A stretch of DNA of 63,993 bases, the filler included. It is 4 parts of 4 records of this genome, joined end to end, with 100 filler letters (N's around TTAATTAATTAA, not from the genome) between each part and the next. Parts side by side here need not be neighbours in the genome. Positions count along the whole stretch, not along the records: positions 20,298 to 43,010 come from DRR378314_277; 3 more parts are not named here. One strand, 5' to 3'. The notes below the pieces were generated by a model. It saw nothing but the letters and a program-made list of their open reading frames with translations. It was not told the origin of the DNA and did not search any database. Position 1 is the stretch's first letter; every line of letters begins with the position of its first letter. Both the position numbers and the translations under genes were made by a program. Positions 18,388 through 57,899 of the stretch are shown here, piece by piece.

Positions 18388-18487
18388 GCGCTGATCATTC
18401 CGGTCATGTCATCGGCACGGCGGCTTGATATGCTGCATAGAACTCACCGGTTCTACATTGCCAGCCGCACGCTGCAAGGAGCGCCCC

Positions 18488-19738
18488 ATGACCGCCATGA
18501 TCCGCGAGCCCCTCACCGATCCGGCCCGCCTTAACCGGGTCGGCGACCCGGACCGCCCCGGCATGCGGCGCGGTCGGCGCCTGTTCAAATGGCTGCTCGG
18601 CTCCGACCCGCACCCGACGCCGGGGCAGATGGCGTCGATCCGCCAGGCGATGCTGGCCGGGGACCCGCTCGCCGACGCGGTGGTCGCCATGTACCACCGC
18701 CTGCCCGCGGGCCAGGGCCGCAAACTGCTGGACCAGGCCCTGGAACAGGGCCTGCACACCCTCGACGATCCGCCGGAAGAACTGACCGCCCTGTTTCACC
18801 AGGTCGACCACGAACCCATCTGGCTGGACCGGGCGCAGCTGCGGCTGGCCTGCGAGGTCTCCCACCGGGTGGGCCTGGCCGGCGAGCTGGTGCTGCGCAA
18901 TCTGTCCCTGATGGGCGGCTATCTGGCGGCGGCGGCGGCCAAGCCGCTGGCGTTCACCGGCGAGCTGGACCGCATGGCCAACCGGCGGCTGGTGGAGACC
19001 GGCAAATTCTGGATCGACGTGACCACCCCCGGCGGCCTGGAGCGGGACCGGGACGGCTTCAAAAGCGCCGTGCGCGTGCGCCTGATGCACGCCCAGGTGC
19101 GCGCCATGCTGCTCAAGTCGGACAAGTGGGACCCGGCCTGGGGGCACCCGCTGAACCAGTGGGATTCCATGGCCACGATCCTGGAATTTTCGGTGATCTT
19201 TCTCTCCGGCCTGCGCTCGCTGGGCTTTCTGTTCAGCAAGCGCGAACGGGAAGCGGTGGTGCACCTGTGGCGCTACGTGGGCTACCTGATGGGCGTGGAC
19301 GAACGCCTGCTGCCGGCCTGCGAGGCGGATGCCATGCGCGCGCTCTACCAGGTGATCGCCACCATCGGCGAGAGCGACGAGGACAGCCGCCGCCTGGGCG
19401 AGGCGCTGGCCCGGGCCTCGCTGCAAGACAGCGGCGACGGCTGGCTGGCGAAGCGTCTCGGCAAGCTGGAATACACCCTGCGCGCCGGCTATACCCGCTA
19501 CGTCCTGGGCGACGACGCCGGCGACAAGCTGGGGCTGCCGCGCACCGCCACCAAGTACGTGTGGCCGGCGCAGATACCGTTACGTTTGGGCGCGGAGCTG
19601 GTGCGCAAGAGCGTGCCGTCGGTGAACCGGAGCCTGATACGGCTGGGCGAACGGGCGCGCCGGGAGCAGTTCCCGAAACGGGTCCAGCGGCTGAAAGCGG
19701 ACACCAGCTTTACGCCGGTGAAGAAACTGGCCCGCTAG
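18488..19738 (+). CDS. MpaB/DUF2236 (latex clearing protein-like) oxygenase family protein
   Basis: GDPLADAVV, RLVETGKF, VRVRLMHAQVR, WGHPLNQWD, HLWRYVGYLMGV. Confidence 0.85.
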   Translation: MTAMIREPLTDPARLNRVGDPDRPGMRRGRRLFKWLLGSDPHPTPGQMASIRQAMLAGDPLADAVVAMYHRLPAGQGRKLLDQALEQGLHTLDDPPEELTALFHQVDHEPIWLDRAQLRLACEVSHRVGLAGELVLRNLSLMGGYLAAAAAKPLAFTGELDRMANRRLVETGKFWIDVTTPGGLERDRDGFKSAVRVRLMHAQVRAMLLKSDKWDPAWGHPLNQWDSMATILEFSVIFLSGLRSLGFLFSKREREAVVHLWRYVGYLMGVDERLLPACEADAMRALYQVIATIGESDEDSRRLGEALARASLQDSGDGWLAKRLGKLEYTLRAGYTRYVLGDDAGDKLGLPRTATKYVWPAQIPLRLGAELVRKSVPSVNRSLIRLGERARREQFPKRVQRLKADTSFTPVKKLAR

Positions 19739-19839: not shown

Positions 19840-20197
<358 letters not shown>

Positions 20198-20297
20198 NNN
20201 NNNNNNNNNNNNNNNNNNNNNNNNNNNNNNNNNNNNNNNNNTTAATTAATTAANNNNNNNNNNNNNNNNNNNNNNNNNNNNNNNNNNNNNNNNNNNN
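20198..20297. other. Artificial contig linker
   Basis: 44 N + TTAATTAATTAA (stops in all six frames) + 44 N. Confidence 0.99.
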
Positions 20298-20747
20298 TAA
20301 TCCTACGTTCAAAGGGTGAAGAGTCCGCATAACGTCTGTTGGGCAAACAGAGATGATCTAACGAAAAGTAAACTCATATCATAAATACCCGTCCACCAGG
20401 TAGAAACGAGTGGTCTAAGTATAGCCGTTCCCCAAGCGGGCAAACGTCTTCCAAGGATACACGTCATGTACAGTGCATGAGTCGCCCAAGCATTTTCTCA
20501 ATTTTATTTATTACAAGTAGTCACAACTTTCGTGTGCATGACTTGATTCCGAGTCTCCAATCCAGCATATCGGCAGAGCGCCGGCGAATGCTCAAAAGCA
20601 AACGAGCCCTCTGCTTACAAACGAGTCACTTAGCCACAAAAAGGTCGGAATATATCTCTCCGAATGGTGCGCTTGCCTTAAACCTACGTTCATTGGATCA
20701 AGAGTCTAAATTTTTAATTACGAAGGGAACTTTCCCCGACAAGTATC

Positions 20748-23700
20748 TCATCCGTGGCTCCTCCCTCTCAATCGGTACTCGCCAACCTTGTGCATCACCT
20801 CTTTCAGAGATTGGACTTTTTGAATTTGAATCCACTGACGAACCATGTGCCGTGGAAAGCATGACTTGTCAGTAGCGTCTTCGAATGGGTTTCGTGCATG
20901 TGCAATCAGATTATTGTTCAAGAAAATCATGTCTCCCGACTGGAGATTTTCTTCGAATACTTTAGCTCGGTCTAGTTCCCTATCCAAGCAGTCGAGAGCG
21001 ACTTTTAGCAGTGGTGATATCGGCACGCCCGTCTTCCTATGGCCAGTCTCTATCCAAAAGCGCATGTACCGGAAGCGCATGGTACTGCCGTCTTCGGTGA
21101 AAATTGGGTACGCGTTGCATCGAATGCGCCTCTTCAACACCTCGGCCGAGCGAGATACACGAGAGACAATGTCACTACCAGCTCCCATGCCGTCTCCGTT
21201 TTCCATGATGTCACGAGGTAGGTTGCGCTGGAGTTCGTAGAGGAGCCAGGCTGGGAGCTGCATCTTAAGGTTTTCGAAAGCATTTGCGGCATTTGTTGCC
21301 TTGAGCTCTCCACCCTTGTATGACGGCTGGATGCACAACAGTGATATGACATCGTACACGCGATCACGAGAGGCACCATCTGTATGCCAGCCAGCTTCAC
21401 TTGATGACACTGAGAAGAGCACATTGTCAGAGTTTGTGTCCACGTTTTTGTTCTGTACGTCAAATAGCCGACCTCTCGCGCCTTGGTCGACGACGCCGAC
21501 GAAGCTGCCGATAATGTAATACATGAGTTTAGCACGAATTACTTTTTCTTCTTGCTGCTGCTCAACAGAACCGCTTCCCAGATTGAATCGATCGAGATTC
21601 ATTCCTCGCAGAAGTACCATTCCGTTATCCTTCAGGAGGCGATCACGCATACGCGCGCACAGCGCATTCGTGCAAGGAAGGGTAGTTGGATCCAACTGAT
21701 CGCCAAAGCAAAGTGTTTCGCCCGTGATGCCACGCGAGGCTAGCTCGTTGCACGTGCGCAATATTTCTTCTTGCACAAGTTCTGGAAAGTTGATTGCAAA
21801 TGCACTTTCGAAACAGCTATAGTCCTCGGGAGTCCAGTAGAGCTTAGGACTCAAGAGCCCCAGCGCACCATCTTGATCAAGTCGGTCGAGGCTTCTAGCC
21901 TCTGGCTTGCGCACTTTGAAAACCAAGTGCAATGGAAGGTCCTCTACGGACTGGAAGAACTCGGCGTCCAGCTTCATATGCTCTGGCCGAACTCCAGCTT
22001 CGCGGACATCTTCAATTTCGAAACCAATTTTGTTAATCGCAACAATGTAGTCATCTAACGTCTTGAACAACATGCGCACATTGAGTGATCGGCCGTCGCG
22101 TGTTTTGATCGTGCCTGGTAGCAGCATGTCACGAGCACTGAAGTACTGCGTCTTGTCACCGGTAGCGAAGCCGCTGTCGAATGCAAACGCACTGTTGCTG
22201 CTGTGCATGAATGCCATGAGTGGATGCGGCACGCTGAACACAAACGAACCCTCTGGTTTTAGCAACGCAAACACATCGGCGAAGATCTTATTCATGCTGA
22301 AAAGTGTGGTGTAGTTGAAGAGAAAAATTGCAACTGCAAGGTCAAAGCACCCTTCCTCCATATCAGCATCTGGTAGTACTCGCTTGATGATGCTTCCACT
22401 GGAGGCAAGGACTTTCTTGAGATTCGTTGCATCTCCTGCAATGAACACCTGGCGGTCTTTGAGATGCTCCGAGCGCGCAGCGATTTCCTTTGCTCGCTGA
22501 ACCATTTCGGGACTCGTGTCCACTCCAATCACAAAGTCCGCGCCGCATTTCTCCGTCAGAATCCGAGCTGGATAACCTTCTCCGCAGCCTACGTCAAGGA
22601 CAAGGCCGTCTCGCGCAGCGTCGTTGCACATCTCAAAGACCACAGGACGACCAGTGTAATCGCTAAGACAGTTTGGTCCGTCTCGGACCCAATTCTGCGA
22701 TTGTTTATCGTACAGCTTTGCGGCAGATTCTTGCTTTGGTACGGAGCTGGGGGTTGCATAAGTCGCAATTACACTGCTGCAGAAATCCCAGCGTGCTTGT
22801 AACATCTTGTTTGCGCCAGCCAGAAGCTCTTCGCGCCCCTGCTGCGTCGCTGCTATTTTCAAAACCTCTGTCCTTAGAGCAGCAGCGTGCGTTGTGTCCA
22901 CATCGATGTGCAAGGGCACAAAGGCGTAGTCAGTGACCTCCATATCAGTCCTCTCGAACGCGGAGAGAAGATTCGCGTACATGCCTGGCACCACAAGCTC
23001 GCATGCGAAATACAAGAGCCCAAGTGCTGTGCCAGCAGAACTGTCAGAGTCACAACAAGCCCATTCCATTGCACTCGCCAATATTTGCCCGTGCTACCGC
23101 TTCCGTTCTGTAGAAAAATCCATAGTTTCCCAATCGACAGCATCAAGGAGGGCTTTGCCGCAGTAAACGCGCTCGAGTTTTTCCGAAATGGTGTGCCGCG
23201 TCAAGTTACGGAGCATGCGCTGGAAAAGCGCTGGATGGGGAACACCGTCGACTTCTTCGACCCGAATACCCAACGCAGCGATTTCCTCTTTGGTCTCTTC
23301 ATCGTAGTGACCCATCTCTTCCTCCAGATTTTCGTCTAATGCTTCAGTAGCTGTCCCAAGTTTATCCCGAGCTTCGCGTACGCACTTTCCGAAGACCATA
23401 CTGAGAGCTGAATACTCGTGCAGGAATGCCAGCAGCATACCGGTATTGTCCTCGTATTTTCCGTCACGAAGGTTATGCAAAACGTGATGTTTCACACCAG
23501 GGTGTTCTTGAGCAAGCTTCTCTACAGCAGTTACAAAGTCCTCGGCGTCAAAGTGAGCTGGATTCAGCAGAATTCGCGGAAAGCCCGGTGGTAGCTCGTT
23601 CAAGACAGCAGGGCTCGTGCCTGTCTGTGCCACAACAGAATCGTACCGCTGCACCACGTGAACAAAGTTCTTCAGGATCACAGAGCCACGTTTATCGAGC

Positions 23701-24092
23701 CTAGTCAACCTGGACTTGAGGTGGTCCTTCAATTGGTGGACTTCTTGCTTCGCATCATCCTGGTTGGAACTCTGCAAGCCTTCCAGGTAGGCACTCAAGT
23801 TCTTGACAGCTTCCCGGTGACTTGCACATGCCTCGTACGTTTCTGTTTTGTAGAGTTTTCTCAGCGTAGTGTGGTTGAGCGTAAACTCTTCTCCGTCACC
23901 ACACTGCAGCGCTAAACTTTGCCACAGCTCCTCACCATCGCCACCTGGGTATCCGATGTCGCGAAGCAGGCCCAACCACTTTTCCTTATCAATGGGGCCG
24001 CCCCGCTTCCGACATGAACGTTCCAAGGCATCCAGAGCTTCCTGCTGCAGGGACCTGCCATGCTCTCTCCCTCCGGGCAGTCCTTGAGGAGC
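20748..24092 (-). CDS. Tri-domain fusion: heme-oxygenase-like diiron oxidase + class I SAM methyltransferase + TauD/TfdA Fe(II)/2OG dioxygenase; one internal in-frame TAG (possible pseudogene)
   Basis: ORFs 23094-24026 and 20748-23081 share a frame and are separated only by TAG at 23096-23094. HDO ligands NLEEE, PH, ACE, H-x3-D-x2-H; MT motif LDVGCGEG and GVDTS; TauD WHTD, IAHAR, RHMVRQW. Frame opens at a splice acceptor (ctctacag) before 24092. Confidence 0.8.
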
Positions 24093-24366
24093 CTGTAGAG
24101 TGAGATAGGCGCATCATGAATGTTTACAAAGGAAGAGTGTAGAAAAAAGGCAGGGTTAGAAAACTTGGTTGACGGCGGTTGAGACTAACTATTGCTGCTT
24201 GATGTGAGAGCAGTGTTACCGCCTCCCGTATTCTAAGATTGTAGAGGCGAGAGGAAATGTCCCATTTCCACAGCGTATGAAGCAAATGATTCTTAATTCT
24301 ACTATATTAGACACAGCGCGGCAGAGCCAATCAAAGGTTCGACGGGCGCTCGGTTTGTACTGTTTT

Positions 24367-24850
24367 ACGCAAGACCGCCATTGGGCCGTAGCCCGACGCG
24401 TCGGCCGAACAGAGTCGTAGACGGTTCCCGCCGCTGCCTACCCGGCCCCAAGATTGTTCTTGGCGCGCGAACTATCATGGCATCTATTCTCGTCTGATAC
24501 CTGGCAGCCGCAACAAGTTGCTCCCCTGTGGTCACTGCAAACGTGGGTTGTAACTAGGGGGGCGCATGAGAAAACGCTCTAGCAGCAAGATGCAGCTCGT
24601 GACGCACAGAAGCACCCGCCCTTTGGCCGGAAGCGAGCGGCGTCGGCCGAACAAAGCTGCCTAGGCTTTCCGCTGCTTCGCACCCGCACGCCCAGTTTGT
24701 TCTTGGTGCGTAAACAATCAGTGCGACTTGCATTGTCTCATACATGACAGCAGTATAAGAGGTACTCATTTGCAGCTGCTAGGTACCCGCTTCAACGGCA
24801 GTTTTATCAGCTAGAAACCCTACATACATGAGAAAAGCTCTACCAGCGGC
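24367..24850. repeat. Diverged tandem duplication, two copies of about 240-260 bp
   Basis: Collinear shared words: GCGTCGGCCGAACA (24398 and 24640), TTGTTCTTGG, GTCT.ATAC.TG.CAGC, CATGAGAAAA(C)GCTCTA (24565 and 24827). Confidence 0.7.
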
Positions 24851-27800
24851 AAGCGGTAAGCGACAAAGTGGGCAGCCAGAGCGGGTTCTCGTAGCCCCTT
24901 GGGTCCCAGCCTCTGCCATGCGCACTATTTCTCAGCACATACGCAGCAAGTGCGTCTTATTACCCCCTAAAGTGCTTAGCCAATGAACTCAATATTTTTG
25001 AAAGCGACCCCAAACCAATAACAAGCATATGGCTACCTCACAACGAGGAGAGAAGCGGCGTGCAGGAGAGCGGAGAAATACTGCCCCCCTGTTTCCTTGG
25101 CATAGTACCCATACGCAATCTCATACACCTGGTGAAACTCGGGAAAAAAACTAATGAGAGTCAGTCGCAAAATGGAACTGATTTTGCAGCTACTTCAATT
25201 ATGAGCTCCTCGTGGTTTCTTCATCAACGGAACATGGCGCAGCGCAGGGCGTGCCGCCTACGCGCACCTCTCGTTCTCCGAGAGCGCTATGCACGCAGCC
25301 GCAGCGACTTCATAGGACGTATCCCCTGCCAGCTCGCTCAATAGCATTCCCAGCGATGTATGGGCACGCGGACACGCACGTACGAAACAAGCCACAAATG
25401 TGCATGGAATAACTGGATCTCAAAAGCAGGGGCTGCTGATATTGGAAAGGAGAGCCACTGAAAGTATACGCGTGCACTTCTCCCATGGCTGGAAACCAAG
25501 AGCACAGAAGCACGTGACGCGCACGAGCCCTTGTCGCCTTTGCACAAGTGATGGAAAAAGGCCATCATGTGATTAGAACTGAGCAATTTTGCAGAAGGTA
25601 AAACGATAAAACTTCAATACATTCAATATATCTACAACCGAAAGAAAACGGCAGTCGCAAACTACCCTCACTTGGAAGAAGAATGCGCCGAGATGCCGCG
25701 AGCCGTCACCACATAGAACACTTAACAAATGATGGGCAAAGAGAGCAGCGTCCGAAAATACCACGCGCGGGGGAGCCCGCACCCTCCTGTAATATTCCAC
25801 AGTACAAAGCTGCCTCCTTGCTTCCAAGTCTTTGATTTGGTAAATATAAACCAATAATGCACTTACGTTGCATACCCACACAAACAAAAACGTGCTCTTA
25901 AAAAACCATGAGCAAAATGTCCAATACGTTGATCATTTTTGTGCTCTCAATCTGCCCCTGAACTATTAGCATGAAACTTTTTCAGCTTCCTGGATAGCTC
26001 AAGGAAACCCCAAGCACTAGGATGCACCGCGTACGCGCTGCAGTCATCTCGCTTGCGAAAGCTACACAGTTTATGCGCAGCAGAATGAATTGCACACCCA
26101 GCAGATAAAACTTGCCAATATCTCGTCCTCGGCTTTCTTTTCGGCTTGCATTGGCACTTCGGCGACATGAACCGCAACGGGGGGCGCTTTTGGCATCATT
26201 GTGCTGCTGGCAAGCTTGCAAGGTGGGAGGAGAAACGGAGATAGCTTCTCGCGTACTGAACAGAGGAAAACAAATTCCCAGTGGACTCCGATGCCCCGCA
26301 CTTGCGATGATACCTGGAAACTGGCGATACGCACATGCTACAAGGGCTAGGGGAAACGTGACCCTGGCGAAAAGCCTCGCCAGGGGTCAAGTGCCTATCT
26401 CTATTCCTGCTGAGTATGCGGTTTACTTCGCTAGGTCGTAGCTGCTTATTCGGAATCGTTCAGGCACTTTTGTGCAAAGCGTCGTACCGCACTGCATAAG
26501 AATACGTGCTTCCGCTGCTTCCGAGAAAGAATCTCGATAGCCAAATCATTCAGCCAGTAAGGAGGGGTGTGCAAAGGCTCCAAGGTTGCCCGGCGCTACG
26601 TTGCACAAGCTTGGCCTTGTTCACAGCGAGCCCAAAGGAATCCCGCACTCTTGGAGAACACTCTGCTTGGTTGAGGCTGGGCTTGACAAACTTGGGATAG
26701 TCTCTGCACAACGCTTATCATTCCACAGTGCTACCCTTTCCATAATCAGAGATATCGCATCGTATTACATTGTCGAGAAGTTGCACGGTATGCAACCGCT
26801 GATACCCCAATTCGTGGCACGGCAGCCGGAGAGCTATCACAAAGTGCATCACATTAGTGCGTGACCATTTGTTGCTTCGCTGCTGTTGTATCCAGCAAGA
26901 GCACCGCACTTCATTTCCAAAAGTACAGCACACAAGATATAGGCATGGATGAGAAACAAGCAAAAATAAAAGCTGGCACCGACTTGCAAATATTCTCAGC
27001 CCGGTATTGCCACGCGAGAGGTGAATGCATGCATTCTGGACACGCTGCGAAGCTGCTTTCCATGGGTTACGCACAGGTACTAGAGATGTTGAAAGGGTCA
27101 ACACGACGCAGAAATTGTGGAACTTGTCGCCGTTTGCCAGCTCGACAAGCAAGACCATCGCTCGACTGGGCGCCTTTCACAGAATTAGACTTGGGGGGGC
27201 GTCAGAGTATCCATACTTGTTTCAGATTCAAAGGAGCATGCGCACAGGTGACCCGATTTGAAGAACAAGCCAGGCGCTCCACTCTAGTGAACGGCCAACG
27301 CGGCATGTTACGTCGCAGCGTTGTTGACCCCAGGCGAGGCTCGGATCAATCCCTACGCGGCACTGCGGCGCTTTTGCAACGCACAAAAATCGCCTGAGCA
27401 AACGGAAGCTTGCGCAAAAATGAAATTTCGCAGCATGAAACTTTCTCGTATATCACTGTATTGCAGGTGTCTTTCACAGCTATCGCTTATACGCTTGTTA
27501 TAACCGCAAGACTAAAACGAGCATTTATATCCAACCACAAACGCACTGTAGTCTAGGTGCGCGCACACGAAGGCAGCACACAAATACGGCCCATATCGCC
27601 ACGGATAGGCAGGCCGGCCTGCAAAGAATGGCCAGGGAGGCTGACCCGCGAGCTTTTCACAATAAAAGGGTACAGAGATCACACATCACATCGAATTCGC
27701 GAAAATTCCGGATGAACATTTTTTTCTTCCCGCGCACAAGAAGCGTTCCTTTGCGCAGCCGGGGCTCAGGGATTCGAATTCAAACGCCAGCGAGCCAAGG

Positions 27801-28187
27801 TGCCTGGGAGATCCGTGTGCGCGCAGACACCTACAAAGGTGGTTCTGGACCGCGCAAAATATCCAGCACCGAAAGTCGCGACTACACCGGCGCGCGTTGC
27901 AATATATATTGCAAAATGTATTCATGGTTAGCTTCATCAAAAACGGATTTGGTTTAGACGCGCGAAGGAAGCAGTGTGCGCAGAGGGCGCGGCGAGCTGC
28001 GCGCGGCAGAGTCGAGAGCACTGCCGCGCGCCGAACCCCGGCGCGCTCCATATGCGAGGCGCCCGCAAGCTACTGACTTGTGCTAAAAATACGTCCTTCC
28101 GACACACTGCAACTTGCTCGCAGATGCACCTATGAACACGATTGAAATCAGCAGCAAAAAGACCAACCATACCGACCGACCGATACA

Positions 28188-31100
28188 TCAAGCGCCCCGT
28201 ACCTGCTTCTGCCTCGTCTCCCACCTTTCATACGCGCGCGCGCTATCCTTGTCGGCTCCCTCCGCGCCAGCACCCTGGCGCTCAAGACCACGAACTCTGC
28301 TGCGTTGGACATCGAAAACTCGCGGAGAACTGGCCCGTTCCGCAGTGGGAGACGCGCGGTTGGATGAAAATGGAACGGAATCTGTGTCCACCTGTTCGGG
28401 CTCGCAGCCACTATCACCACTGGAGTCCAGACTTTCGACAGAATTACCGTTCTCGGCGTCCGCGCCGCGCATGCAGGCGCTTCGTCGCAAGCGGGCCCTT
28501 CTCGAGGTATTTTCTGCACTCGATGATACTGTTGGTACGGGATTTTCATCGCTAAGATATTCCTTACTATCACGACATGGTCGATTTCCAGTGTGTTCCA
28601 CGTCCGAAAGAGATGCACCGCTCTCTGCGTTCCGATCTAGATTGTCAGCAGAGCCGACTCGTGCATCACCGGAATCGGTAGACGGCGCTGCCCGCGGACC
28701 GCTCGCTGCCTTGTGCTCACTAGATGCGACTCCAGGCGTGATCATGGGCTGCTGCTCGCCCAAAGCAGTCGCGTGATTCAACTCTTGATCGGCATGTGAT
28801 AACGGGACGCTTACGGCGCCTCGAACACTTGTGTGCACCGACACTGCAGCCCCTGCCGCGCTCTCCGCCGATCCACGCGCGTCATCCTGATACAGATTGC
28901 CAGACGGAGCCGTTATCGTGCTTCCCACAGTCGGCTCCGATACTGCAGCCATGTCCTCGCCATCCCCGCGCTGCTCTCCAGCAACGCCCGTTGACTCCGA
29001 CCAGCACTCGGTTTTACTCGATATATCGGTGCGCTGCGACACAACGCCCGCCTGTTCGCCGTCTACATCATCTGGAGCCCTGCGACCAATGGCATGATCG
29101 CCACTGATCGCATGTACCTCTAGCTCGCGCCTCGTTTCGCTCGCCGTTACCTCACATTGCGACCCAACGCCTGCCTGCTCGTTCTCCGCAGCACATGGAG
29201 CGCCGCTGGTGCCGCCACGCCCCCCGCTCGCCGCTTGTCCTTCAAGCCCGCGCTCGCTGAAACCACTACAACGGCCATCCTCCGCTCCTCGCGCCGCTGT
29301 GCCTCCATTCCCGGGCCCGATCCCATTCGGGTTGGGCTCGTCACCACACACGCCATCATCGCGCTTAGGGTTATCTTCGATCTTTGCATCATTGTCACAA
29401 TCTGCTGCGCACTTCTCCTCTTCTTCCCGGAAAGCGAGTCCTTGCAATCTCGTGGCGCCTCTTCCAGGGACTTCGTCCTCGACCCCTTTAGCGCTACCTG
29501 ACTGGCTTGCATTCGGCAACTTCGCCGATGCATTCTCAGAAGCACGCAGCGGGGAAGGACTTACCACCGTCAGCGCCTCGCCAAATTTGCCCGAGGGCGA
29601 CGAAGGCGCAAAGGGTATACCGTCTCCACCACGCCGAGGCTGATCCGTGCGCGAGCTGCGCGTCTGCACAGATGGTGGCACGGCCGCAAAGAGCGCCAGC
29701 GCCTGCGCCCCCGCGCCCGACCATTCCCCGAGAACATCGCTATCCCACGAACGATTCCGACGATGCACAGGCGTGCGCCGGACAAATGGGCGAGGCGGAC
29801 CGGAGAGCTCGTCATGCTCTTCTGCAATGCCTGCTTCGTGCCCAGACAACTCCGCTGACGAATCGGCCGGCCCTTCCACGAGAGTCGCACGGACCGGCAC
29901 AGGAGGTCCATCGTCCAGCCCCGTGCTCTGCTCGTCAGTGCTGCTCGTCGCACGCGCGAGCTCGTATGACGCGCGCCTCGAACGCAACGGGCTAGATACA
30001 GAGAGGTGCGTCGAGTTTGCAGACCCGGAAACACTCGCACGTCGCGGCGGCGTCGCAGACCCGGAAACACTCGCCCGTCGCGGCGGCGTCGCAGACCCGG
30101 AAACGCTCGCGCGACGCGGCGACGACGATACTGATCCAGCGCCCGAGGAGATACCGCGCGCTGCGAGGGCTTGCTGGCTCTCCGCGTGTGACACGTTCTG
30201 CACAAGTGCCTGAATCTGTTGCATGAATGCGGTCATATCCGCCGCTGGGCCGCCAAGTGTCTCGTAGGCTCCAGCAGCAGAACGCGCGTTGCTTGCATCC
30301 GTACTTGTGCTAGTGAGCGATCCAGCCCGCGCGTCGCGCCGCTTGGAAGTGTTTGCGGCTTTGTCGGCCAGCACCTCGGCAAGCTCGACGTCGATTGAAA
30401 TCTCGCGCAGCCCGCCTTCATCATCGAGCGCATCTTCCATATCGAACAAGTTCCCCAAAATCGGCTGCAGGTCCAAGATCCATTCCACATAGCATGTGTC
30501 GGCACGCTGCACCGCCGAGCCAAAGGAAAATGCGGCGAGATGCTCGTCCACCGACGAGCTTACATAGTCGACAACCTCTGAATCGGGATCGACCGGCGCA
30601 GCAAACTCGGTTGCGAAAATCGTGTTCTCCAGCCATTGGCGCAGCTCGCATACACGGAGCGCGAGGCGGCGCCGCACAACATCGGCACACCGCCGCTGCG
30701 CGCGCTCCAGGTGCTCGCGCGCGGCGGCGCGGAGCGATGCGTCGCCGCGTACTCGAACAACCACTTTAACGCGAAAGTCCTCGTCGTCAAACTGCGGAGC
30801 AGTTACAACCAAGGGCGATGGAGGCGTCAGCACAGCAGCGCTTGGCAAATTGGGGGCTTGGAGATTGCCGACGGCGGGGCGCACTGTCGATGTTGTGGAA
30901 GCCTCGTCGGATGAATACGCCTCGTCGAGCCGCAGCGGCGTCACACCTGCGCGGAAGCTTGTCCCCGAGCGAGGCGACTGCCCCATATCCGACGACGACG
31001 TGCGCGCAAACGAACCCCGTCCCGCAGGCGGTGTGATCCACGGTGACGCTCCCAGTGGCACACTTCGCCGGACTGGGCCAGCCGGCGACTGAAGCTCGCG

Positions 31101-33728
31101 CTGTAGGTGTGCTACGAGACGCTCCAGCTCGCCGACGCGCCGACGCTGCACTCGAAGCTCGCGCACAAGCTCCGCCCGCTCGGCGGTGGCAGCGTCGCCG
31201 CCGAGTGCGACGTCATCGCCACGAATCGCTTGCTCGGCAGACGGAGCGGAAGTGCCCGTTTGGGCCGTCTCACTGCTTGTGCTCTGCGGCCCGAGCGTGC
31301 TCGCGCTCGAATCGCGGAAGCCGCGCTTCAGCTGCCCAACACGCACTGGCGCTTCCTCGCCCGTCGCGCCGCCTTCCGGTCGATCGGTCGCCTCGCCTCC
31401 GTTCGAGTCAGGCGCGCTGCTTCCTGTGCACTCCCTCTGTGTTGAAAGTAACTCCATAGCAACCGCAGGCGTTCTACGTGCTCGCCGCGAACGGCGCCGA
31501 GACCTGTCCGCTCGCGCGTGGCGCGACGCGTGTGCGGCGTCCGCGTCCGAGCTGCTCGATCCGACGCGCTCTGCGTCCACGGCAGAAAGCGACAGCTCTT
31601 CCAACTCGCGGATGCGTTCTTGGAGCGCACTCTGCTCTGTGCGCAGCGGCTCTACGAGCAATGCCGACGCGCGCGCGTTCGCAAGCTCCCGCTCTCGCTC
31701 GTGTAGCATCGACTGCATCAGGTGAAACACACTCTCGCCGCCCTTGAGCTTGGTTTTCGTTCGCGCTAGCTCATCCTGCAGCTTCATCGCCTCCTCCTTC
31801 GATCGCTCGAGCTGCGTCTGCTGAGCAGCTCGCCGCGGCTTCTGCAAAGAGACGCGCCCAATGCGCGTCGCAAACTGCAGCGCGGCCACAGTGTCCGCGT
31901 ACCGACCGGGCGAAGAACACGCGTGCGTGACAACCAGCACCTTGGAGAGCCCGCCTAGGCAGTCGCGCAGCAGCTGGGTGAGTTTTGTGTTGCGGTACGA
32001 TACATGCTTTTCTTGCCGATGCACAGCGTACAGCACGTCGCCGAGACCGAGAAGCGTGCGGTTGGCGGCCGCCTCCGCAGAGGACACACTGCCTCCCGCC
32101 CCGCCAACCCCTTCGCGTCGCGGCGGGCTCGCAACAAGCACGCAGGCGGCCTTTCCCAAAAGCTTCAAGCCAGACAGGCGATGCGTGGTCGACACGTGAA
32201 ACGTCACAACTACATGGCACAGAGACACGCGCTCAGCGGGCAGGGCGGCGACGCGCTCGCGCACATCGGCAACAAACTCCTCCGCGTCGCAAGCGGTGCG
32301 CAGCTTACGATACGCAGCCCCTTCCACCTCAGTCTGGCCCCGGGGCCGCTGCTTAATCTGCAGGGGGCGCTTTGGCGTTGGCCCGCTAGCCTGCAATCCG
32401 CCCGCCGGCGTACCGGTGCGGCTCGCACTGGTCGACGCGCGCGAAGACGGCCGCCGCGCGGGTGTTTGGGACGACGGCGCGCTGCCAAGCGAGGAGCTGC
32501 GGCTGCGGCCGCGACCCCGCGCTCCGCCGCGCTTTGAAGCCGAGCCGGCATCTCCGCGTCCACGCGCGCCAACGCGTACCAGGGCACTCCGGCGCGCAGC
32601 CTTCTTAGATGAGCCAGAGCTCGCGTCTTTACTTGAGCTATCACCGCCGCCGCCGCCGCGCCGGCCGAGGCGCGCGCCCGCAGGGCCACTGCCACCGCTC
32701 TCGCCGTCGCTCCGCGCGTGCAGCCCGCTCCCACTGCGCTCTAGCGCCGGGGTGTTGCGCTTTGCGCGCGCATCCGCATCCGTGCCCGCGCCCACGTGAC
32801 GATATGGCTCTTCCGATTCCGATCCAGTGGATATTTCGATGCTCGTCTCGCCGCGCCGCCGCGCGGGAGCTGCGCCCGTTTCGTCCCCGGAGCCCGACGC
32901 TGCGGCACGCTCGCCCTCGCACGCCCCCGCGCCGACGCCGTCGAGCAGGTCGTGCAGCTCCCCATCCCCAAGAAGCACCGCAGAACCCCACATTTCGCAC
33001 TCAATTTCACTGCTACGCTCAGCGGCAGCATGGAAAAGCAGCTTCCCCAGCGCTACTGCCGCACCGTCGTCCCACAGTGCAGCAGCATCGTCGGCTGACG
33101 ACGCAGGGGCAATATACCCACTGACGCCCGAGCTTGCCGGCCGAACCCCGCCCAGGACGCATGCACGCGACGCCATGTGCGGATGGCCGAGACTCAGAAC
33201 ACAGCCACTAAATCCCTGAAGACATGCATCCACAACTGGTGAAAGCTCGTCGCGCAGCGCGTCCAACGGCTCCGTCTCGCCGAGCACGTGGTCGAAGCGG
33301 TATGCATAAATGCGGTTCCCGTGACGCTGACGCAGTCGGTCAGCAGACGAGTCGGCGCCGCCTTCATGCGCAGTCGGCAGCCGCGTCCGCAGTCGCACGG
33401 TCGTTCCATCGTGGCTTACAATACCATCGGTAGCGGTCACATCAAGCATACCAAGTGCAAACGAGGGACGACGCAGCACAGCGCGCCCGCCATTTGGGCC
33501 TGCACGCGCTGCGCTGCCGTCGCCCCAACCTTCCTCCGTTGTAATCCGGCAGCACGTCCGCACGTTGCTGCCGCGCTGCAAGCGGTCCGTCTCTGAGCGC
33601 AGCGCATAGTTCTCGACCACAATTTTCCGCAGTCCCACAATAAGAGCATCGTGAGACCCACCATGCGGTCCTATGCTCTGTATATGCTCTTCTCCGGTAC
33701 TGCTACCGCGGCGAGGCTGGCTGCGCAT
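28188..33728 (-). CDS. Kinesin-like protein with degenerate motor domain, coiled coil and long disordered tail
   Basis: YRFDHV, VDACLQGFSGCV, ANRTLLGLGDV, HVSYRNTKLTQLLRDCLGG, TVAALQFATR; uninterrupted 1846-codon ORF. Confidence 0.85.
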   Translation of the reverse strand: MRSQPRRGSSTGEEHIQSIGPHGGSHDALIVGLRKIVVENYALRSETDRLQRGSNVRTCCRITTEEGWGDGSAARAGPNGGRAVLRRPSFALGMLDVTATDGIVSHDGTTVRLRTRLPTAHEGGADSSADRLRQRHGNRIYAYRFDHVLGETEPLDALRDELSPVVDACLQGFSGCVLSLGHPHMASRACVLGGVRPASSGVSGYIAPASSADDAAALWDDGAAVALGKLLFHAAAERSSEIECEMWGSAVLLGDGELHDLLDGVGAGACEGERAAASGSGDETGAAPARRRGETSIEISTGSESEEPYRHVGAGTDADARAKRNTPALERSGSGLHARSDGESGGSGPAGARLGRRGGGGGDSSSKDASSGSSKKAARRSALVRVGARGRGDAGSASKRGGARGRGRSRSSSLGSAPSSQTPARRPSSRASTSASRTGTPAGGLQASGPTPKRPLQIKQRPRGQTEVEGAAYRKLRTACDAEEFVADVRERVAALPAERVSLCHVVVTFHVSTTHRLSGLKLLGKAACVLVASPPRREGVGGAGGSVSSAEAAANRTLLGLGDVLYAVHRQEKHVSYRNTKLTQLLRDCLGGLSKVLVVTHACSSPGRYADTVAALQFATRIGRVSLQKPRRAAQQTQLERSKEEAMKLQDELARTKTKLKGGESVFHLMQSMLHERERELANARASALLVEPLRTEQSALQERIRELEELSLSAVDAERVGSSSSDADAAHASRHARADRSRRRSRRARRTPAVAMELLSTQRECTGSSAPDSNGGEATDRPEGGATGEEAPVRVGQLKRGFRDSSASTLGPQSTSSETAQTGTSAPSAEQAIRGDDVALGGDAATAERAELVRELRVQRRRVGELERLVAHLQRELQSPAGPVRRSVPLGASPWITPPAGRGSFARTSSSDMGQSPRSGTSFRAGVTPLRLDEAYSSDEASTTSTVRPAVGNLQAPNLPSAAVLTPPSPLVVTAPQFDDEDFRVKVVVRVRGDASLRAAAREHLERAQRRCADVVRRRLALRVCELRQWLENTIFATEFAAPVDPDSEVVDYVSSSVDEHLAAFSFGSAVQRADTCYVEWILDLQPILGNLFDMEDALDDEGGLREISIDVELAEVLADKAANTSKRRDARAGSLTSTSTDASNARSAAGAYETLGGPAADMTAFMQQIQALVQNVSHAESQQALAARGISSGAGSVSSSPRRASVSGSATPPRRASVSGSATPPRRASVSGSANSTHLSVSSPLRSRRASYELARATSSTDEQSTGLDDGPPVPVRATLVEGPADSSAELSGHEAGIAEEHDELSGPPRPFVRRTPVHRRNRSWDSDVLGEWSGAGAQALALFAAVPPSVQTRSSRTDQPRRGGDGIPFAPSSPSGKFGEALTVVSPSPLRASENASAKLPNASQSGSAKGVEDEVPGRGATRLQGLAFREEEEKCAADCDNDAKIEDNPKRDDGVCGDEPNPNGIGPGNGGTAARGAEDGRCSGFSERGLEGQAASGGRGGTSGAPCAAENEQAGVGSQCEVTASETRRELEVHAISGDHAIGRRAPDDVDGEQAGVVSQRTDISSKTECWSESTGVAGEQRGDGEDMAAVSEPTVGSTITAPSGNLYQDDARGSAESAAGAAVSVHTSVRGAVSVPLSHADQELNHATALGEQQPMITPGVASSEHKAASGPRAAPSTDSGDARVGSADNLDRNAESGASLSDVEHTGNRPCRDSKEYLSDENPVPTVSSSAENTSRRARLRRSACMRGADAENGNSVESLDSSGDSGCEPEQVDTDSVPFSSNRASPTAERASSPRVFDVQRSRVRGLERQGAGAEGADKDSARAYERWETRQKQVRGA
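30019..30126. repeat. 36-bp tandem repeat x3 inside the kinesin-like CDS (RRASVSGSATPP)
   Basis: Unit GCAGACCCGGAAACACTCGCNCGTCGCGGCGGCGTC starting at 30019, 30055 and 30091. Confidence 0.95.
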
Positions 33729-34633
33729 GGCACCGTCGCACCAGCGCGCACGCTCTCCGCCCGCGCAACCAGGTCACAGGAAAAGCAGCAGCGCGCGCGT
33801 TGCCGCGAGCAAGAGCCGAGCACGATAAAACACCGCGCGAGCCGAAAATATGCCAACCCCGTCCTCCGTACACACACAACCCGGCCAGGCCAAACGCCGT
33901 TTCAAAAATATAGGATTTCGTGAAGCGCACTGTTTACTGTGCAACGCAAAGCTTCGGTCGGATACTTGGCGTAGAGCACCCAAGATTGCAATACACTGAC
34001 CGAAATGCACCGTGCACGACAGCGATCCGCACAGGTCTCAAGCCGGGCGGACGGCTCCAGAACCGGACGGCAGGGCAAAACGGCTCGTGACTAGGGTTAC
34101 TTATGGCAACCACCCTTTTGTGCATCACCGCAGTCTTCCGCCTGGCGTGCTTGCCGCTCCCGAACTTTAGGTGCTGTGATGGTCATTGTGAAGCAAGATA
34201 GTACAATGTATTCTTCTCCACCGGCGCGGGCGCAGCGCTGCATTAGCAGAGGCGAGCCCGCCCACCCTCGCATGCCCTCGCGCCTCCGCCAAAAGCACTT
34301 CCCCTCCACCAAGCGACTCGGAATCGCCCCGCACGGCGAAGCACCACGAACGACAATCATCCGGAAAAGGGACGAAGCTCCCAGAGGTTTCCGTTGTACA
34401 TGAGCTACGAGCTGCGCATCGACAGGCTGCGCGCTTCCGCGCAGGAAGCTGCACCCGCAGAGCTGCGCAACGTACGGGGCCAACGCCAGCGGCCACGTCG
34501 GCCCTCGCATCGCTCTGGGCCCCAGCGGCCGACTTGCGCAATCCCCTGATTCGACGCTCCACGTCCGTCTACATTCCTCGCCATGCGCGTCGCAAGAGCG
34601 CGCAGAAGCAAAATCTCTTCACCAAAAAAAAAA

Positions 34634-43010: not shown

Positions 43011-43110
43011 NNNNNNNNNNNNNNNNNNNNNNNNNNNNNNNNNNNNNNNNNNNNTTAATTAATTAANNNNNNNNNNNNNNNNNNNNNNNNNNNNNNNNNN
43101 NNNNNNNNNN
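43011..43110. other. Artificial contig linker
   Basis: 44 N + TTAATTAATTAA + 44 N. Confidence 0.99.
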
Positions 43111-57677: not shown

Positions 57678-57799
57678 CTGTACCAGCACCATTTCCACGA
57701 AAAGATATACGTACACCGAAAGACGAATATTTTTTGCATAAAATCGTTTCTATAGACAGGGGGGAAGAGAAGCAACCACAACGCTCTGGCCAAAAAAAA

Positions 57800-57899
57800 N
57801 NNNNNNNNNNNNNNNNNNNNNNNNNNNNNNNNNNNNNNNNNNNTTAATTAATTAANNNNNNNNNNNNNNNNNNNNNNNNNNNNNNNNNNNNNNNNNNNN
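57800..57899. other. Artificial contig linker
   Basis: 44 N + TTAATTAATTAA + 44 N. Confidence 0.99.

What the first reader, a model, noticed from the sequence alone, without database searches (positions are those of the whole stretch)
20748..24092. Eukaryotic three-enzyme fusion: HO-like diiron oxidase + SAM methyltransferase + TauD dioxygenase, a candidate one-gene biosynthetic pathway
Seen: one reading frame of about 1,115 codons with three enzyme domains in series. (i) About 23560-22780 is a helical domain with NLEEE...PH...ACE...H-x3-D-x2-H. (ii) About 22730-21905 is a class I methyltransferase (LDVGCGEG, GVDTS). (iii) About 21850-20830 is a clavaminate synthase/TauD-like domain with an intact H-x-D...H triad and a terminal Arg motif. 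Known: E-H-E-H-D-H is the ligand set of heme-oxygenase-like diiron oxidases such as CADD; this superfamily (also UndA, SznF, BesC) does N-oxygenation, desaturation and C-C cleavage of amino or fatty acids and sits in bacterial clusters with methyltransferases and 2OG dioxygenases (streptozotocin, guanitoxin). Inference: a bacterial three-gene cassette was transferred to a flagellated protist and fused, and makes a small methylated, oxidised metabolite (osmolyte, signal or toxin). I know of no characterised enzyme with this architecture.
Basis: partly seen in the sequence, partly recalled or inferred. Interest (0 to 1): 0.88.

Follow-up and report, generated by a model that had tools for sequence, protein, structure and literature searches.

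The report
Fused three-enzyme gene in a protist
A flagellated protist carries one gene that joins a two-metal oxidase, a methyltransferase and an iron/2-oxoglutarate oxygenase, which are three separate neighbouring genes in bacteria and there often sit beside a nitric-oxide sensor, and nobody appears to have described what this widespread enzyme set makes.

Summary
The three domains are real. With the one in-frame stop read as X, Pfam finds Haem_oxygenas_2 (residues 224-435), a class I methyltransferase (498-615) and TauD (811-1087). The frame is not clean. It holds a TAG at 23096-23094 and has no in-frame ATG. The TAG lies in a 20-25 residue insert that 24 aligned homologues lack. A 75-nt GT..AG intron (23168-23094) would remove it.

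The architecture is not unique. Diatoms, chrysophytes, dinoflagellates, a diplonemid and a few filamentous cyanobacteria have the same fusion, usually with N-terminal EF-hands. In 77 of 80 prokaryote loci the parts lie in separate reading frames of one cassette. All three domain trees separate the fused from the unfused forms. So a fused bacterial cassette is supported.

An H-NOX nitric-oxide sensor gene lies within 1 kb of the cassette in 11 of 80 loci. My best reading is a one-protein pathway that methylates and twice oxidises an amino-acid-like molecule, probably tied to NO signalling. The chemistry is inferred. Ten literature searches found no description.

The parts
20748..24092 (-). Whole frame of the fused gene as seen: 1,114 sense or X codons plus the TGA stop at 20750-20748. 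The 5' end is unresolved.
   Evidence: Homologues of 31-46% identity cover 41-98% of it.
23538..24092 (-). N-terminal region (residues 1-185) that aligns with the EF-hand module of the homologues. It is degenerate here.
   Evidence: Alignment A1. No EF-hand family found in P0001, whereas P0030 and P0006 score EF-hand families.
24093..24094 (-). AG of a possible 3' splice site (pyrimidine-rich ...ctcactctacag|G) directly in front of the open frame. The upstream in-frame stop TGA is at 24116-24114 and an out-of-frame ATG is at 24061-24059.
   Evidence: Read from the sequence. No RNA evidence.
22758..23537 (-). Heme-oxygenase-like dimetal oxidase (HDO) domain, residues 186-445. Ligand candidates are E258/E259, H286, E365, H395, D399 and H402.
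   Evidence: Pfam PF14518 at residues 224-435. Profile match to CADD at E 3.5e-21, BesC at 3.5e-14 and HrmI at 6e-10. AlphaFold model with pLDDT 88.4. Foldseek TM 0.69/0.83 to CADD. Ligand columns E259, H286, E365, H395 and H402 are invariant and D399 is >= 90% conserved in 14 sequences.
23094..23096 (-). In-frame TAG (codon 333) inside the HDO domain.
23094..23168 (-). Candidate 75-nt in-frame GT..AG intron that holds the TAG. Alternatives are 23138-23094 (45 nt) and 23097-23041 (57 nt).
   Evidence: The window has 80 residues between H286 and E365 against 53-62 in 11 homologues; removing 25 codons gives 55. The insert is absent from 13 bacterial oxidases. It is the only low-pLDDT stretch of the model. 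Inferred, not shown.
21858..22757 (-). Class I SAM-dependent methyltransferase domain, residues 446-745. Motif I is LDVGCGEG, followed by GVDTS.
   Evidence: Pfam Methyltransf_25/31/11/23/12. 50 invariant columns in 12 sequences. Profile match to ToxA at 2.7e-28 and plant phosphoethanolamine N-methyltransferase at 1e-19.
20793..21857 (-). TauD/TfdA-family Fe(II)/2-oxoglutarate oxygenase domain, residues 746-1100. It has H903-T-D905, H1065 and R1081, plus the family motif RYMRxWIE.
   Evidence: Pfam PF02668 at residues 811-1087. Invariant columns. Profile match to FrbJ at 6.8e-39, 7n7v at 1e-29, gamma-butyrobetaine dioxygenase at 6e-16 and TmpA at 5e-11.

Best explanation
This is a real gene of a cilium-building eukaryote. 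It belongs to a conserved, uncharacterised family in which an EF-hand module (degenerate here), a CADD-like heme-oxygenase-like dimetal oxidase, a class I SAM methyltransferase and a FrbJ/GBBH-like Fe(II)/2-oxoglutarate oxygenase form one polypeptide.

The three enzymes come from a bacterial cassette of adjacent genes, ordered oxidase, methyltransferase, oxygenase. The genes often overlap by a few bases, so losing the stops between them would give exactly this domain order.

The window's copy is most likely intact. The single TAG would be removed with a short in-frame intron (best candidate 23168-23094), and the start codon would be supplied by a short 5' exon.

Proposed mechanism (inferred): the protein works as a one-chain pathway on an amino-acid-like small molecule. 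The methyltransferase adds a methyl group. The Fe/2OG domain hydroxylates a C-H bond. The dimetal oxidase then does an N-oxygenation or an oxidative fragmentation, as its nearest solved relatives HrmI and BesC do.

In bacteria the cassette lies next to, and in Planctomycetota directly upstream on the same strand of, an sGC-type H-NOX nitric-oxide sensor and its histidine kinase. I therefore think the product is NO, an NO donor or an N-oxygenated signal that this sensor reads. In algae the EF-hands would place its production under calcium control.

Shown: the domains, catalytic residues, fold, cassette, fusion pattern and H-NOX linkage. Inferred: splicing, substrate, order of reactions and the NO link.
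For: Domains and residues:
- The HDO domain model has pLDDT 88.4. Its best structural matches are CADD, HrmI and BesC.

Eukaryotic host:
- Kinesin and a dynein heavy chain whose best matches are named cytoplasmic dynein 2 heavy chain, 41-43% identity over 99% of a 1001-aa region.
- A 492-nt GT..AG intron.
- Third-codon-position G+C content (GC3) of the gene is 0.55, against 0.60 and 0.645 for the dynein and kinesin genes.

Family:
- 48 proteins match at E <= 0.001 in the word-index search.
- 96 cluster representatives match at E <= 1e-30 among 1.84 billion.
- Named members come from Skeletonema, Thalassiosira, Chromulina, Dinobryon, Lacrimia, Prorocentrum/Polarella, Microseira and Brasilonema.

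Cassette:
- 151 of 172 candidate stretches in 185,579 species genomes encode relatives.
- In the 80 kept loci the domains are in different frames in 77. The HDO is upstream on the same strand in 45 and on the opposite strand in 11. tblastn sees no HDO in 21, but Pfam finds a divergent HDO gene next door in the 3 of those that I checked (L016, L018, L026).

Trees: a 38-row eukaryote-like clade that includes the window is starred in the MT, TauD and HDO trees. The fused/unfused label needs 2, 1 and 2 changes.

Intactness:
- The window keeps 96 of the 97 columns that are invariant in the 11 other sequences, as good as any other member.
- There are no internal stops in 1,861 + 4,059 codons of the neighbouring ORFs.

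H-NOX:
- An H-NOX gene lies within about 1 kb of the cassette in 11 of 80 loci, from Acaryochloris, Planctomycetota including Saltatorellus ferox, and Pseudomonadota (proteobacterial) loci including an alphaproteobacterial MAG and a Paracoccaceae MAG. Both divergent and same-strand arrangements occur.
- HNOB is the commonest Pfam family among 119 nearest-neighbour ORFs (7 of 119).
- Five of five such genomes hold only 1-2 H-NOX genes each.
- 22 of 50 further cassette genomes hold an H-NOX, against 1 of 14 control genomes.
- The linked H-NOX is closest to Nostoc Alr2278 and to soluble guanylate cyclase beta-1.
Against: - No RNA data: no sequencing run could be listed, so neither the intron nor the 5' exon is shown.
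- The 75-nt candidate intron has a weak 3' end (ggtag, with no pyrimidine tract). It is unlike the one sure intron of this organism (492 nt, GTACGC...TTCTTTAG).
- Two defects in 3.3 kb (a stop and a missing start) also fit a recent pseudogene.
- The H-NOX link holds for 11 of 80 loci only. The three EF-hand cyanobacterial genomes and Microcystis have no H-NOX at all. The genome comparison is not matched for phylogeny or completeness.
- Adjacency cannot tell making the signal from removing it or responding to it.
- By sequence the oxygenase is nearest to phosphonate and betaine hydroxylases (FrbJ, GBBH, TmpA), and the methyltransferase is near phosphoethanolamine N-methyltransferase. That points to quaternary-amine or phosphonate chemistry rather than NO chemistry.
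- SznF gives no match.
- The EF-hands of the window's own protein are degenerate.
Confidence: 0.5

Rival explanations
1. The family is as described, but its product has nothing to do with NO. The methyltransferase makes a methylated or quaternary amine, or a phosphonate derivative. The FrbJ/GBBH/TmpA-like oxygenase hydroxylates next to it. The dimetal oxidase then cleaves or desaturates it, giving a betaine-, carnitine- or hydroxamate-like osmolyte or metabolite. The H-NOX neighbours would only regulate expression.
For: The TauD profile's best solved relatives are FrbJ (6.8e-39), 7n7v, gamma-butyrobetaine dioxygenase (6e-16) and TmpA (5e-11). The methyltransferase profile matches plant phosphoethanolamine N-methyltransferases at 1e-19. 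A GNAT acetyltransferase gene is in the cassette in 10 of 80 loci. 69 of 80 loci have no H-NOX gene nearby.
Against: This reading does not explain why the rare H-NOX gene (1-2 per genome) sits at the cassette in several phyla and lies directly downstream on the same strand in Planctomycetota. The matches to betaine and phosphonate enzymes are distant and do not define a substrate.
Confidence: 0.25
2. The window's copy is a recently inactivated pseudogene. The TAG is a true nonsense mutation inside a lineage-specific insertion, and the start has been lost by a one-base frame change near 24061.
For: In-frame TAG at 23096-23094. There is no in-frame ATG, while an ATG one base out of frame sits where homologues start. 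The neighbouring 17.8 kb of coding sequence has no such defects, so these are unlikely to be assembly errors.
Against: 96 of 97 columns invariant in the other 11 sequences are kept. Terminal branch lengths are ordinary for the clade. The TAG lies exactly in the only stretch that no homologue has, and GT and AG bound that stretch in frame.
Confidence: 0.2
3. The cassette responds to NO or removes it, or removes a nitrogen-oxide adduct, rather than making it. H-NOX and its kinase would switch it on under NO stress.
For: The same adjacency data. Nitroreductase-family genes are among the nearest neighbours in 3 of 119 ORFs.
Against: A SAM methyltransferase and a 2OG oxygenase are not parts of any known NO detoxification system (from my own knowledge). 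In eukaryotes the fusion carries EF-hands and no sensor, which fits a regulated producer better.
Confidence: 0.1
4. TAG is read as an amino acid, or read through, in this organism, so the frame really is uninterrupted.
For: The frame is the same on both sides of the TAG, and both sides are homologous to the family.
Against: There is no TAG among 1,861 + 4,059 codons of the kinesin-like and dynein ORFs, nor in the other 1,113 codons of this gene. The residues around the TAG are an insert absent from every homologue.
Confidence: 0.04
5. The gene is bacterial contamination or an assembly chimera, not a eukaryotic gene.
For: The window mixes a bacterial contig (1-20197, 67% G+C) with the others. 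G+C content is 48-54% at 20298-28000 and 58-69% further along the same contig.
Against: The gene is on one N-free contig with a kinesin gene. In all three domain trees it sits inside the clade of diatom, chrysophyte and dinoflagellate proteins, away from 45-77 bacterial rows. Its GC3 is close to that of the dynein gene.
Confidence: 0.03

Closest known systems
CADD / CT610 of Chlamydia trachomatis (dimetal 4-aminobenzoate synthase), the type of the Haem_oxygenas_2 family
   Same: Best solved relative of the oxidase domain by profile (E 3.5e-21) and by fold (TM 0.69/0.83). The HMM alignment puts the family's conserved E, H, E, H, D and H columns on the corresponding CADD residues.
   Different: CADD is a stand-alone 231-aa protein that consumes one of its own residues (recalled). 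Here the domain carries a roughly 20-residue loop between the first Glu and His ligands (in most family members; two bacterial subgroups in alignment A2 lack it), and it is tied to a methyltransferase and a 2OG oxygenase. Identity is about 15%.
HrmI/HrmJ (BelK/BelL) and BesC/BesD: pairs of an HDO and an Fe/2OG enzyme acting in turn on lysine
   Same: HrmI (an N-oxygenase) and BesC (oxidative fragmentation) are the next best solved relatives of the oxidase domain. Both work in pathways with an Fe/2OG partner on a free amino acid (recalled), which is the logic proposed here.
   Different: Their partners are not TauD/FrbJ-like, there is no methyltransferase, nothing is fused, and there are no EF-hand or H-NOX links. 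Sequence similarity is distant (E 6e-10 and 3.5e-14 to the profile).
SznE/SznF of streptozotocin biosynthesis (arginine N-methyltransferase, then HDO plus cupin giving an N-nitrosourea that can release NO)
   Same: The same kinds of parts: a methyltransferase, an HDO and a mononuclear-iron beta-barrel domain. Microcystis relatives even have an HDO-cupin fusion next to the methyltransferase and TauD genes, and Bacteroidota have a separate cupin gene. It is a precedent for an NO-related product (recalled).
   Different: No detectable sequence relation. SznF is absent from PDB matches at E <= 1 for the HDO profile and for the Microcystis HDO-cupin protein. The third domain here is a 2OG-dependent TauD fold, not a cupin.
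FrbJ (FR-900098 pathway hydroxylase), gamma-butyrobetaine dioxygenase and TmpA
   Same: Closest solved relatives of the C-terminal oxygenase (E 6.8e-39, 6e-16 and 5e-11). Same HxD...H triad and distal Arg.
   Different: Those are stand-alone enzymes of phosphonate, carnitine or betaine metabolism. NCBIfam scores here are far below their cut-offs (TmpA 26.7 against 400, carnitine_bodg 25.2 against 414.75), so this is not one of those enzymes.
Nitric oxide synthase paired with an H-NOX sensor (animal NOS with soluble guanylate cyclase; bacterial NOS with H-NOX in Silicibacter, recalled)
   Same: Only the proposed logic. A producer sits beside or upstream of an sGC-type H-NOX, and calcium control is suggested by the EF-hands of the algal and cyanobacterial forms.
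   Different: No NOS domain was found in P0001 (11 Pfam families listed, none NOS). There is no haem or flavin domain. NO production is a hypothesis.

Membership tests
Heme-oxygenase-like dimetal oxidases (HDO; Pfam PF14518 Haem_oxygenas_2) | Score above the family's gathering cut-off | tested here: met
   49.4 bits against 28.9 over profile positions 4-177 of 177, but only when the TAG is read as X. The part after the TAG alone scores 35.4 bits.
Heme-oxygenase-like dimetal oxidases (HDO; Pfam PF14518 Haem_oxygenas_2) | All-helical heme-oxygenase-like fold | tested here: met
   AlphaFold model with pLDDT 88.4 and pTM 0.85. Foldseek probability is 1.00 to CADD, HrmI, BesC, FlcD, UndA and PolF, with TM 0.6-0.83.
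Heme-oxygenase-like dimetal oxidases (HDO; Pfam PF14518 Haem_oxygenas_2) | Six-residue dimetal ligand set Glu, His, Glu, His, Asp, His | tested here: met
   E258/E259, H286, E365, H395, D399 and H402 are invariant in 12 sequences. In 14 sequences including 13 bacterial ones they are invariant or >= 90% conserved. They align to the CADD columns.
Heme-oxygenase-like dimetal oxidases (HDO; Pfam PF14518 Haem_oxygenas_2) | Binds two metal ions and activates O2 | not testable with these tools
   Needs purified protein.
Class I SAM-dependent methyltransferases | Rossmann-type motif I (GxGxG) with a following acidic residue, and family HMM scores above cut-off | tested here: met
   VLDVGCGEG and GVDTS lie in invariant columns. 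Methyltransf_25 scores 55.8 against 27 and Methyltransf_11 scores 46 against 21.2.
TauD/TfdA Fe(II)/2-oxoglutarate oxygenases (PF02668) | HxD...H facial triad, a distal Arg for 2-oxoglutarate, and an HMM score above cut-off | tested here: met
   H903, D905, H1065 and R1081 are invariant. The score is 58.3 bits against 27. The role of R1081 is inferred from its position.
EF-hand calcium-binding module | Match to EF-hand HMMs and canonical 12-residue loops | tested here: not met
   No EF-hand family in P0001 at E <= 0.01, while P0030 scores 113 bits and P0006 scores 41.8 bits. In alignment A1 one hand is deleted and the other reads DKRGSVILKN.
SznF-type N-nitrosating enzymes | Sequence relation to the SznF HDO and cupin domains | tested here: not met
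   No SznF chain among PDB matches at E <= 1, for the HDO profile or for the Microcystis HDO-cupin protein.
Nitric oxide synthase | NOS oxygenase (haem) domain | tested here: not met
   The Pfam scan of P0001 lists 11 families, none of them NOS.
Named equivalogs GntD, TmpA, gamma-butyrobetaine dioxygenase, VioC | NCBIfam score above the curated cut-off | tested here: not met
   31 against 345, 26.7 against 400, 25.2 against 414.75 and 24.4 against 418.6.

The most novel reading that the evidence does not exclude
The EF-hand/HDO/methyltransferase/2OG-oxygenase protein is a calcium-gated, haem-free synthase of nitric oxide or of a small NO-donor signal. It would be used by diatoms, dinoflagellates, chrysophytes and this protist. 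Its unfused bacterial form would be the cell's own source of the ligand sensed by the adjacent H-NOX/histidine-kinase system. This would be a second, evolutionarily unrelated way of making NO for signalling, and a candidate for the calcium-dependent NOS-like activity long reported in algae that lack a NOS gene.
Probability: 0.2. Interest if true: 0.95.

Novelty: new variant of a known kind. Interest (0 to 1): 0.72.

Why it matters
The three enzyme superfamilies are well known. This fixed trio is not described in any paper I could find.

It is spread over at least ten bacterial phyla. As a single protein it also occurs in some of the most abundant phytoplankton groups, which means an unknown small-molecule pathway of wide ecological reach.

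The recurrent pairing with an sGC-type H-NOX sensor in bacteria, and with EF-hands in algae, gives a concrete and cheaply testable idea about where signalling NO (or a related N-oxygenated signal) comes from in organisms without a nitric oxide synthase.

Even if the NO idea fails, the family is a clean case of an operon-to-fusion transition across domains of life. It also offers a new reaction set for the fast-growing HDO enzyme field.

Tried and rejected
- RNA evidence: the look-up of sequencing runs listed no run for 20298-25300 (none was listed, which is not the same as none exists).
- Own genome: the window's own assembly is not held, so no genome-wide codon or intron statistics were possible.
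- Other exons: I tried to read more introns from the SPT6-like region 33700-43010. The stop-to-stop ORF list was too fragmented to give exon models, and I dropped it.
- Upstream exon: reading 24093-25300 by eye gave several possible short ATG exons, none testable.
- Codon reassignment: rejected. There are no in-frame stops in 5,920 neighbouring codons.
- Recent foreign origin or chimera: not supported by GC3.
- SznF homology: looked for twice and not found.
- Conserved neighbours other than H-NOX are lineage-limited: GNAT in 10 of 80 loci; alpha/beta hydrolase in 6 of 80; cupin and ferredoxin-reductase genes seen in the Bacteroidota and Microcystis loci I scanned. No transporter or core-metabolism gene recurs.
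- Literature: ten searches gave no paper on this trio, on the fusion, or on an H-NOX/HDO link. I saw only listings and abstracts, plus passages of PMC11177257 and PMC12267927, neither of which mentions the cassette. Subscription journals and supplementary files were not searchable, so an existing description cannot be excluded.
- Notes of this scan: no notes for this genome or this sequence. Two notes on other genomes describe the same cassette beside H-NOX.


Full report
**What the window is.** The 63,993 bases are four contigs joined by N44-TTAATTAATTAA-N44 spacers, with N runs at 20198-20297, 43011-43110 and 57800-57899.
- Contig 1 (1-20197) has 63-70% G+C. It carries a peroxidase-family C-terminal fragment and a rubber-oxygenase-like gene, so it is bacterial. 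The nearest held genome shares 33% of the window's words, about the share of contig 1.
- The other three contigs are eukaryotic. They hold a 1,846-aa protein with a kinesin motor and a 4,059-aa dynein heavy chain. A further dynein exon follows a 492-nt GT..AG intron at 45560-45069.
- The best-named matches of the dynein are cytoplasmic dynein 2 heavy chain, the motor of intraflagellar transport. No match is closer than about 43% identity over the whole 1001-aa region, or 55-58% over half of it.
- So the host builds cilia or flagella, and its lineage is not close to anything named in that collection.

**The observation.**
- On the minus strand, 24092-20748 is a single frame. With its one internal stop read as X (P0001), Pfam finds Haem_oxygenas_2 at residues 224-435 (49.4 bits, cut-off 28.9). 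It finds five methyltransferase families centred on 498-615, and TauD at 811-1087 (58.3 bits, cut-off 27).
- The frame is nevertheless broken. There is a TAG at 23096-23094 (codon 333), in the middle of the oxidase domain. There is also no in-frame ATG between the upstream TGA (24116-24114) and residue 222. The only nearby ATG (24061-24059) is one base out of frame.
- Residues 1-185 align with the EF-hand module that most homologues carry, but they give no EF-hand match here. One hand is deleted and the other is degenerate.

**Is the copy alive?**
- Between the ligands H286 and E365 the window has 80 residues, where 11 eukaryotic and cyanobacterial homologues have 53-62. Thirteen bacterial oxidases also lack the extra 20 columns.
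- The TAG ends this insert. A GT at 23168 and the AG of the TAG itself bound a 75-nt, in-frame stretch, and removing it leaves 55 residues. In-frame alternatives of 45 and 57 nt exist. The 57-nt one would delete a helix that aligns with the bacterial proteins.
- In an AlphaFold model of the domain (pLDDT 88.4), the only poorly predicted stretch is this insert.
- The window's protein keeps 96 of the 97 columns that are invariant in the other 11 sequences. Other members lose 0-20 columns in the same test.
- The neighbouring kinesin-like and dynein ORFs have no internal stop in 1,861 and 4,059 codons. That argues against both a sloppy assembly and a reassigned TAG.
- The open frame starts right after a pyrimidine-rich ...ctacag (24094-24093), which looks like a splice acceptor.
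- I therefore favour a short in-frame intron and a small 5' exon. A recent pseudogene cannot be excluded, because no RNA run could be listed.

**The family.**
- A search of 5.8 billion clustered proteins gave 48 matches of 612-1950 aa with the same domain set, at 31-46% identity.
- Named members are from Skeletonema and Thalassiosira (diatoms), Chromulina and Dinobryon (chrysophytes), Lacrimia (a diplonemid), Prorocentrum/Polarella (dinoflagellates), and the cyanobacteria Microseira and Brasilonema.
- Four are transcriptome ORFs (P0017, P0025, P0038, P0047), and two of these are marked complete in the text shown (P0025, P0038). So the fusion is transcribed as one message elsewhere.
- An exhaustive HMMER search with the 781 residues after the TAG found 96 cluster representatives at E <= 1e-30, and none above 46% identity among full-length hits.
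- The architecture is therefore present in databases but unnamed beyond 'methyltransferase' or 'EF-hand protein'.

**The bacterial cassette.**
- A scan of one genome for each of 185,579 prokaryote species found 151 relatives among 172 candidates. The best 80 loci were kept. They come from Planctomycetota (26), Bacteroidota (22), Cyanobacteriota (11), Pseudomonadota (8), Myxococcota, Verrucomicrobiota and others.
- In 77 of the 80 loci the domains lie in different stop-bounded frames, meaning separate and often overlapping genes.
  - In 45 the oxidase gene is upstream on the same strand.
  - In 11 it is on the opposite strand.
  - In 21 tblastn saw none. In the three of these that I checked (L016, L018, L026), Pfam finds a divergent Haem_oxygenas_2 gene next door.
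- Acaryochloris has the order methyltransferase, oxidase, oxygenase as three genes.
- In the Bacteroidota loci examined (L009, L077) the cassette adds GNAT, cupin and ferredoxin-reductase-type genes. Microcystis has an oxidase-cupin fusion.
- Only Brasilonema and Microseira sp. have everything, EF-hands included, in one ORF. Microseira wollei has it in two.

**Trees.**
- Domain-by-domain trees were built with FastTree and IQ-TREE quick. They had 128, 93 and 102 rows, and rows covering less than 70% of a domain were left out.
- Each gives a starred 38-row clade of eukaryote-like fused proteins that contains the window (support 95-100). Each gives a starred clade of the nine EF-hand cyanobacterial rows.
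- The fused/unfused label needs only 2, 1 and 2 changes.
- The trees are unrooted and of the quick kind, so one fusion is compatible with the data rather than proven. The direction between eukaryotes and the EF-hand cyanobacteria is open.
Its uniqueness is not.

**What the parts resemble.**
- The oxidase profile matches CADD (E 3.5e-21), BesC (3.5e-14) and HrmI (6e-10), and not SznF. The model's fold neighbours are the same, followed by HamA, FlcD, UndA and PolF.
- The oxygenase profile matches FrbJ (6.8e-39) and 7n7v (1e-29). Next come gamma-butyrobetaine dioxygenase and TmpA, and only weakly the arginine hydroxylases.
- The methyltransferase profile matches ToxA, two uncharacterised enzymes and phosphoethanolamine N-methyltransferases.
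- All NCBIfam equivalog scores are far below their cut-offs. The protein is a member of the three superfamilies and of none of the named enzymes.

**The H-NOX link.**
- In an all-against-all comparison of crude ORF calls from the 80 loci, the only widely shared neighbours were histidine kinases and a 180-aa protein. Pfam identifies the 180-aa protein as H-NOX (187 bits), and it is followed by an HNOBA histidine kinase.
- tblastn finds an H-NOX gene within about 1 kb of the cassette in 11 of 80 loci: three Acaryochloris, five Planctomycetota including Saltatorellus ferox, and three Pseudomonadota (proteobacterial) loci: an alphaproteobacterial MAG, a Paracoccaceae MAG and one labelled only as an uncultured proteobacterium. 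It is divergent in some and directly downstream on the same strand in others. Many loci are short contigs, so 11 is a lower bound.
- HNOB is the commonest Pfam family among the 119 nearest-neighbour ORFs (7 of 119).
- The five genomes I checked hold only one or two H-NOX genes each, so adjacency by chance is very unlikely.
- Among 50 further cassette-bearing genomes, 22 have an H-NOX somewhere, against 1 of 14 control genomes. That comparison is not matched for phylogeny or completeness.
- The linked H-NOX is most like Nostoc Alr2278 and the haem domain of soluble guanylate cyclase. That is the NO-binding class (recalled).
- Two earlier notes of this scan on other genomes reported the same pairing. 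I reached it independently and re-tested it here. They are not independent evidence.

**How it most likely works.**
- The firm parts are a four-module protein with intact catalytic residues, and descent from an operon whose three enzymes stay together through fusion, fission and inversion. That is strong evidence that they act in one pathway.
- The rest is inference. HDO/2OG-oxygenase pairs are known to act in turn on free amino acids (BesC/BesD and HrmI/HrmJ, recalled). A methyltransferase-plus-HDO route to an NO-releasing N-nitrosourea is also known (SznE/SznF, recalled).
- With the H-NOX pairing and the EF-hands, the reading I rank first is a regulated producer of NO or of an N-oxygenated signal.
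- The sequence affinities of the oxygenase and methyltransferase to betaine and phosphonate enzymes keep a non-NO metabolite as a serious rival.

**Novelty.** Ten full-text searches found no paper on the trio, the fusion or an H-NOX/HDO link. I saw listings and abstracts, plus passages of two papers. Subscription journals and supplements were out of reach.

**Verdict.** The gene is a new member of an unstudied but widespread family. That family is a new variant among HDO-based small-molecule pathways, and it carries a testable link to NO signalling.

Noticed in passing
window 20198-20297, 43011-43110, 57800-57899: The window is four contigs joined by N44-TTAATTAATTAA-N44 spacers. Contig 1 (1-20197, about 67% G+C) is bacterial, with a peroxidase-family C-terminal fragment at 19843-20193 and an MpaB/rubber-oxygenase-like gene at 18425-19735. 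The rest is eukaryotic, so the assembly mixes organisms.
   Followed up: partly
window 45537-57716 and 44196-44963, minus strand: A nearly intron-free gene for cytoplasmic dynein 2 (intraflagellar transport) heavy chain, with one 492-nt GT..AG intron at 45560-45069. The best matches in any named eukaryote are only about 43% identical over the motor region, so the host lineage looks poorly sampled.
   Followed up: partly
window 28188-33728, minus strand: A 1,846-aa ORF with only a partial kinesin motor match (residues 452-625, profile positions 147-326). The rest is long Ala/Gly/Ser/Arg-rich low-complexity sequence at 64% G+C.
   Followed up: no
window 24448-24508 and 24691-24751: Two copies of a 61-nt direct repeat (70% identical, 243 nt apart) lie in the 4-kb ORF-poor stretch upstream of the gene. 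Possibly a promoter or UTR element.
   Followed up: no
L071:9986-11497 (Microcystis aeruginosa NIES-4325); also L066, L078, L079: In Microcystis the cassette's oxidase is fused to a C-terminal cupin (503 aa). This is the domain pair of SznF, but with no detectable sequence relation to it.
   Followed up: partly
L009:9261-14289 and L077:2143-7293 (Bacteroidota): An extended operon: GNAT acetyltransferase, oxidase, cupin, FAD/NAD/2Fe-2S reductase, methyltransferase and oxygenase. The position of the reductase gene differs between L009 and L077. The reductase could be the electron donor for the dimetal site.
   Followed up: partly
L040:9986-12676 (Acaryochloris marina MBIC11017); also L039, L042: Three separate genes in the permuted order methyltransferase, oxidase, oxygenase, divergent from an operon of H-NOX, HNOBA histidine kinase, a 131-132-aa ORF that I did not scan, and a roughly 890-aa ORF that clusters with the histidine kinases.
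   Followed up: partly
nearest-neighbour ORFs of loci L001-L080 (alignment A5): Nitroreductase-family genes are the nearest neighbour of the cassette in 3 of 119 ORFs scanned, and DndE in 4. I did not look up which loci.
   Followed up: no
L022 (Paracoccaceae MAG) and L027 (Saltatorellus ferox): The methyltransferase rows of an alphaproteobacterial MAG and a planctomycete are sisters (support 100), and their adjacent H-NOX proteins are 68% identical. This suggests the cassette and its sensor move together between phyla.
   Followed up: no
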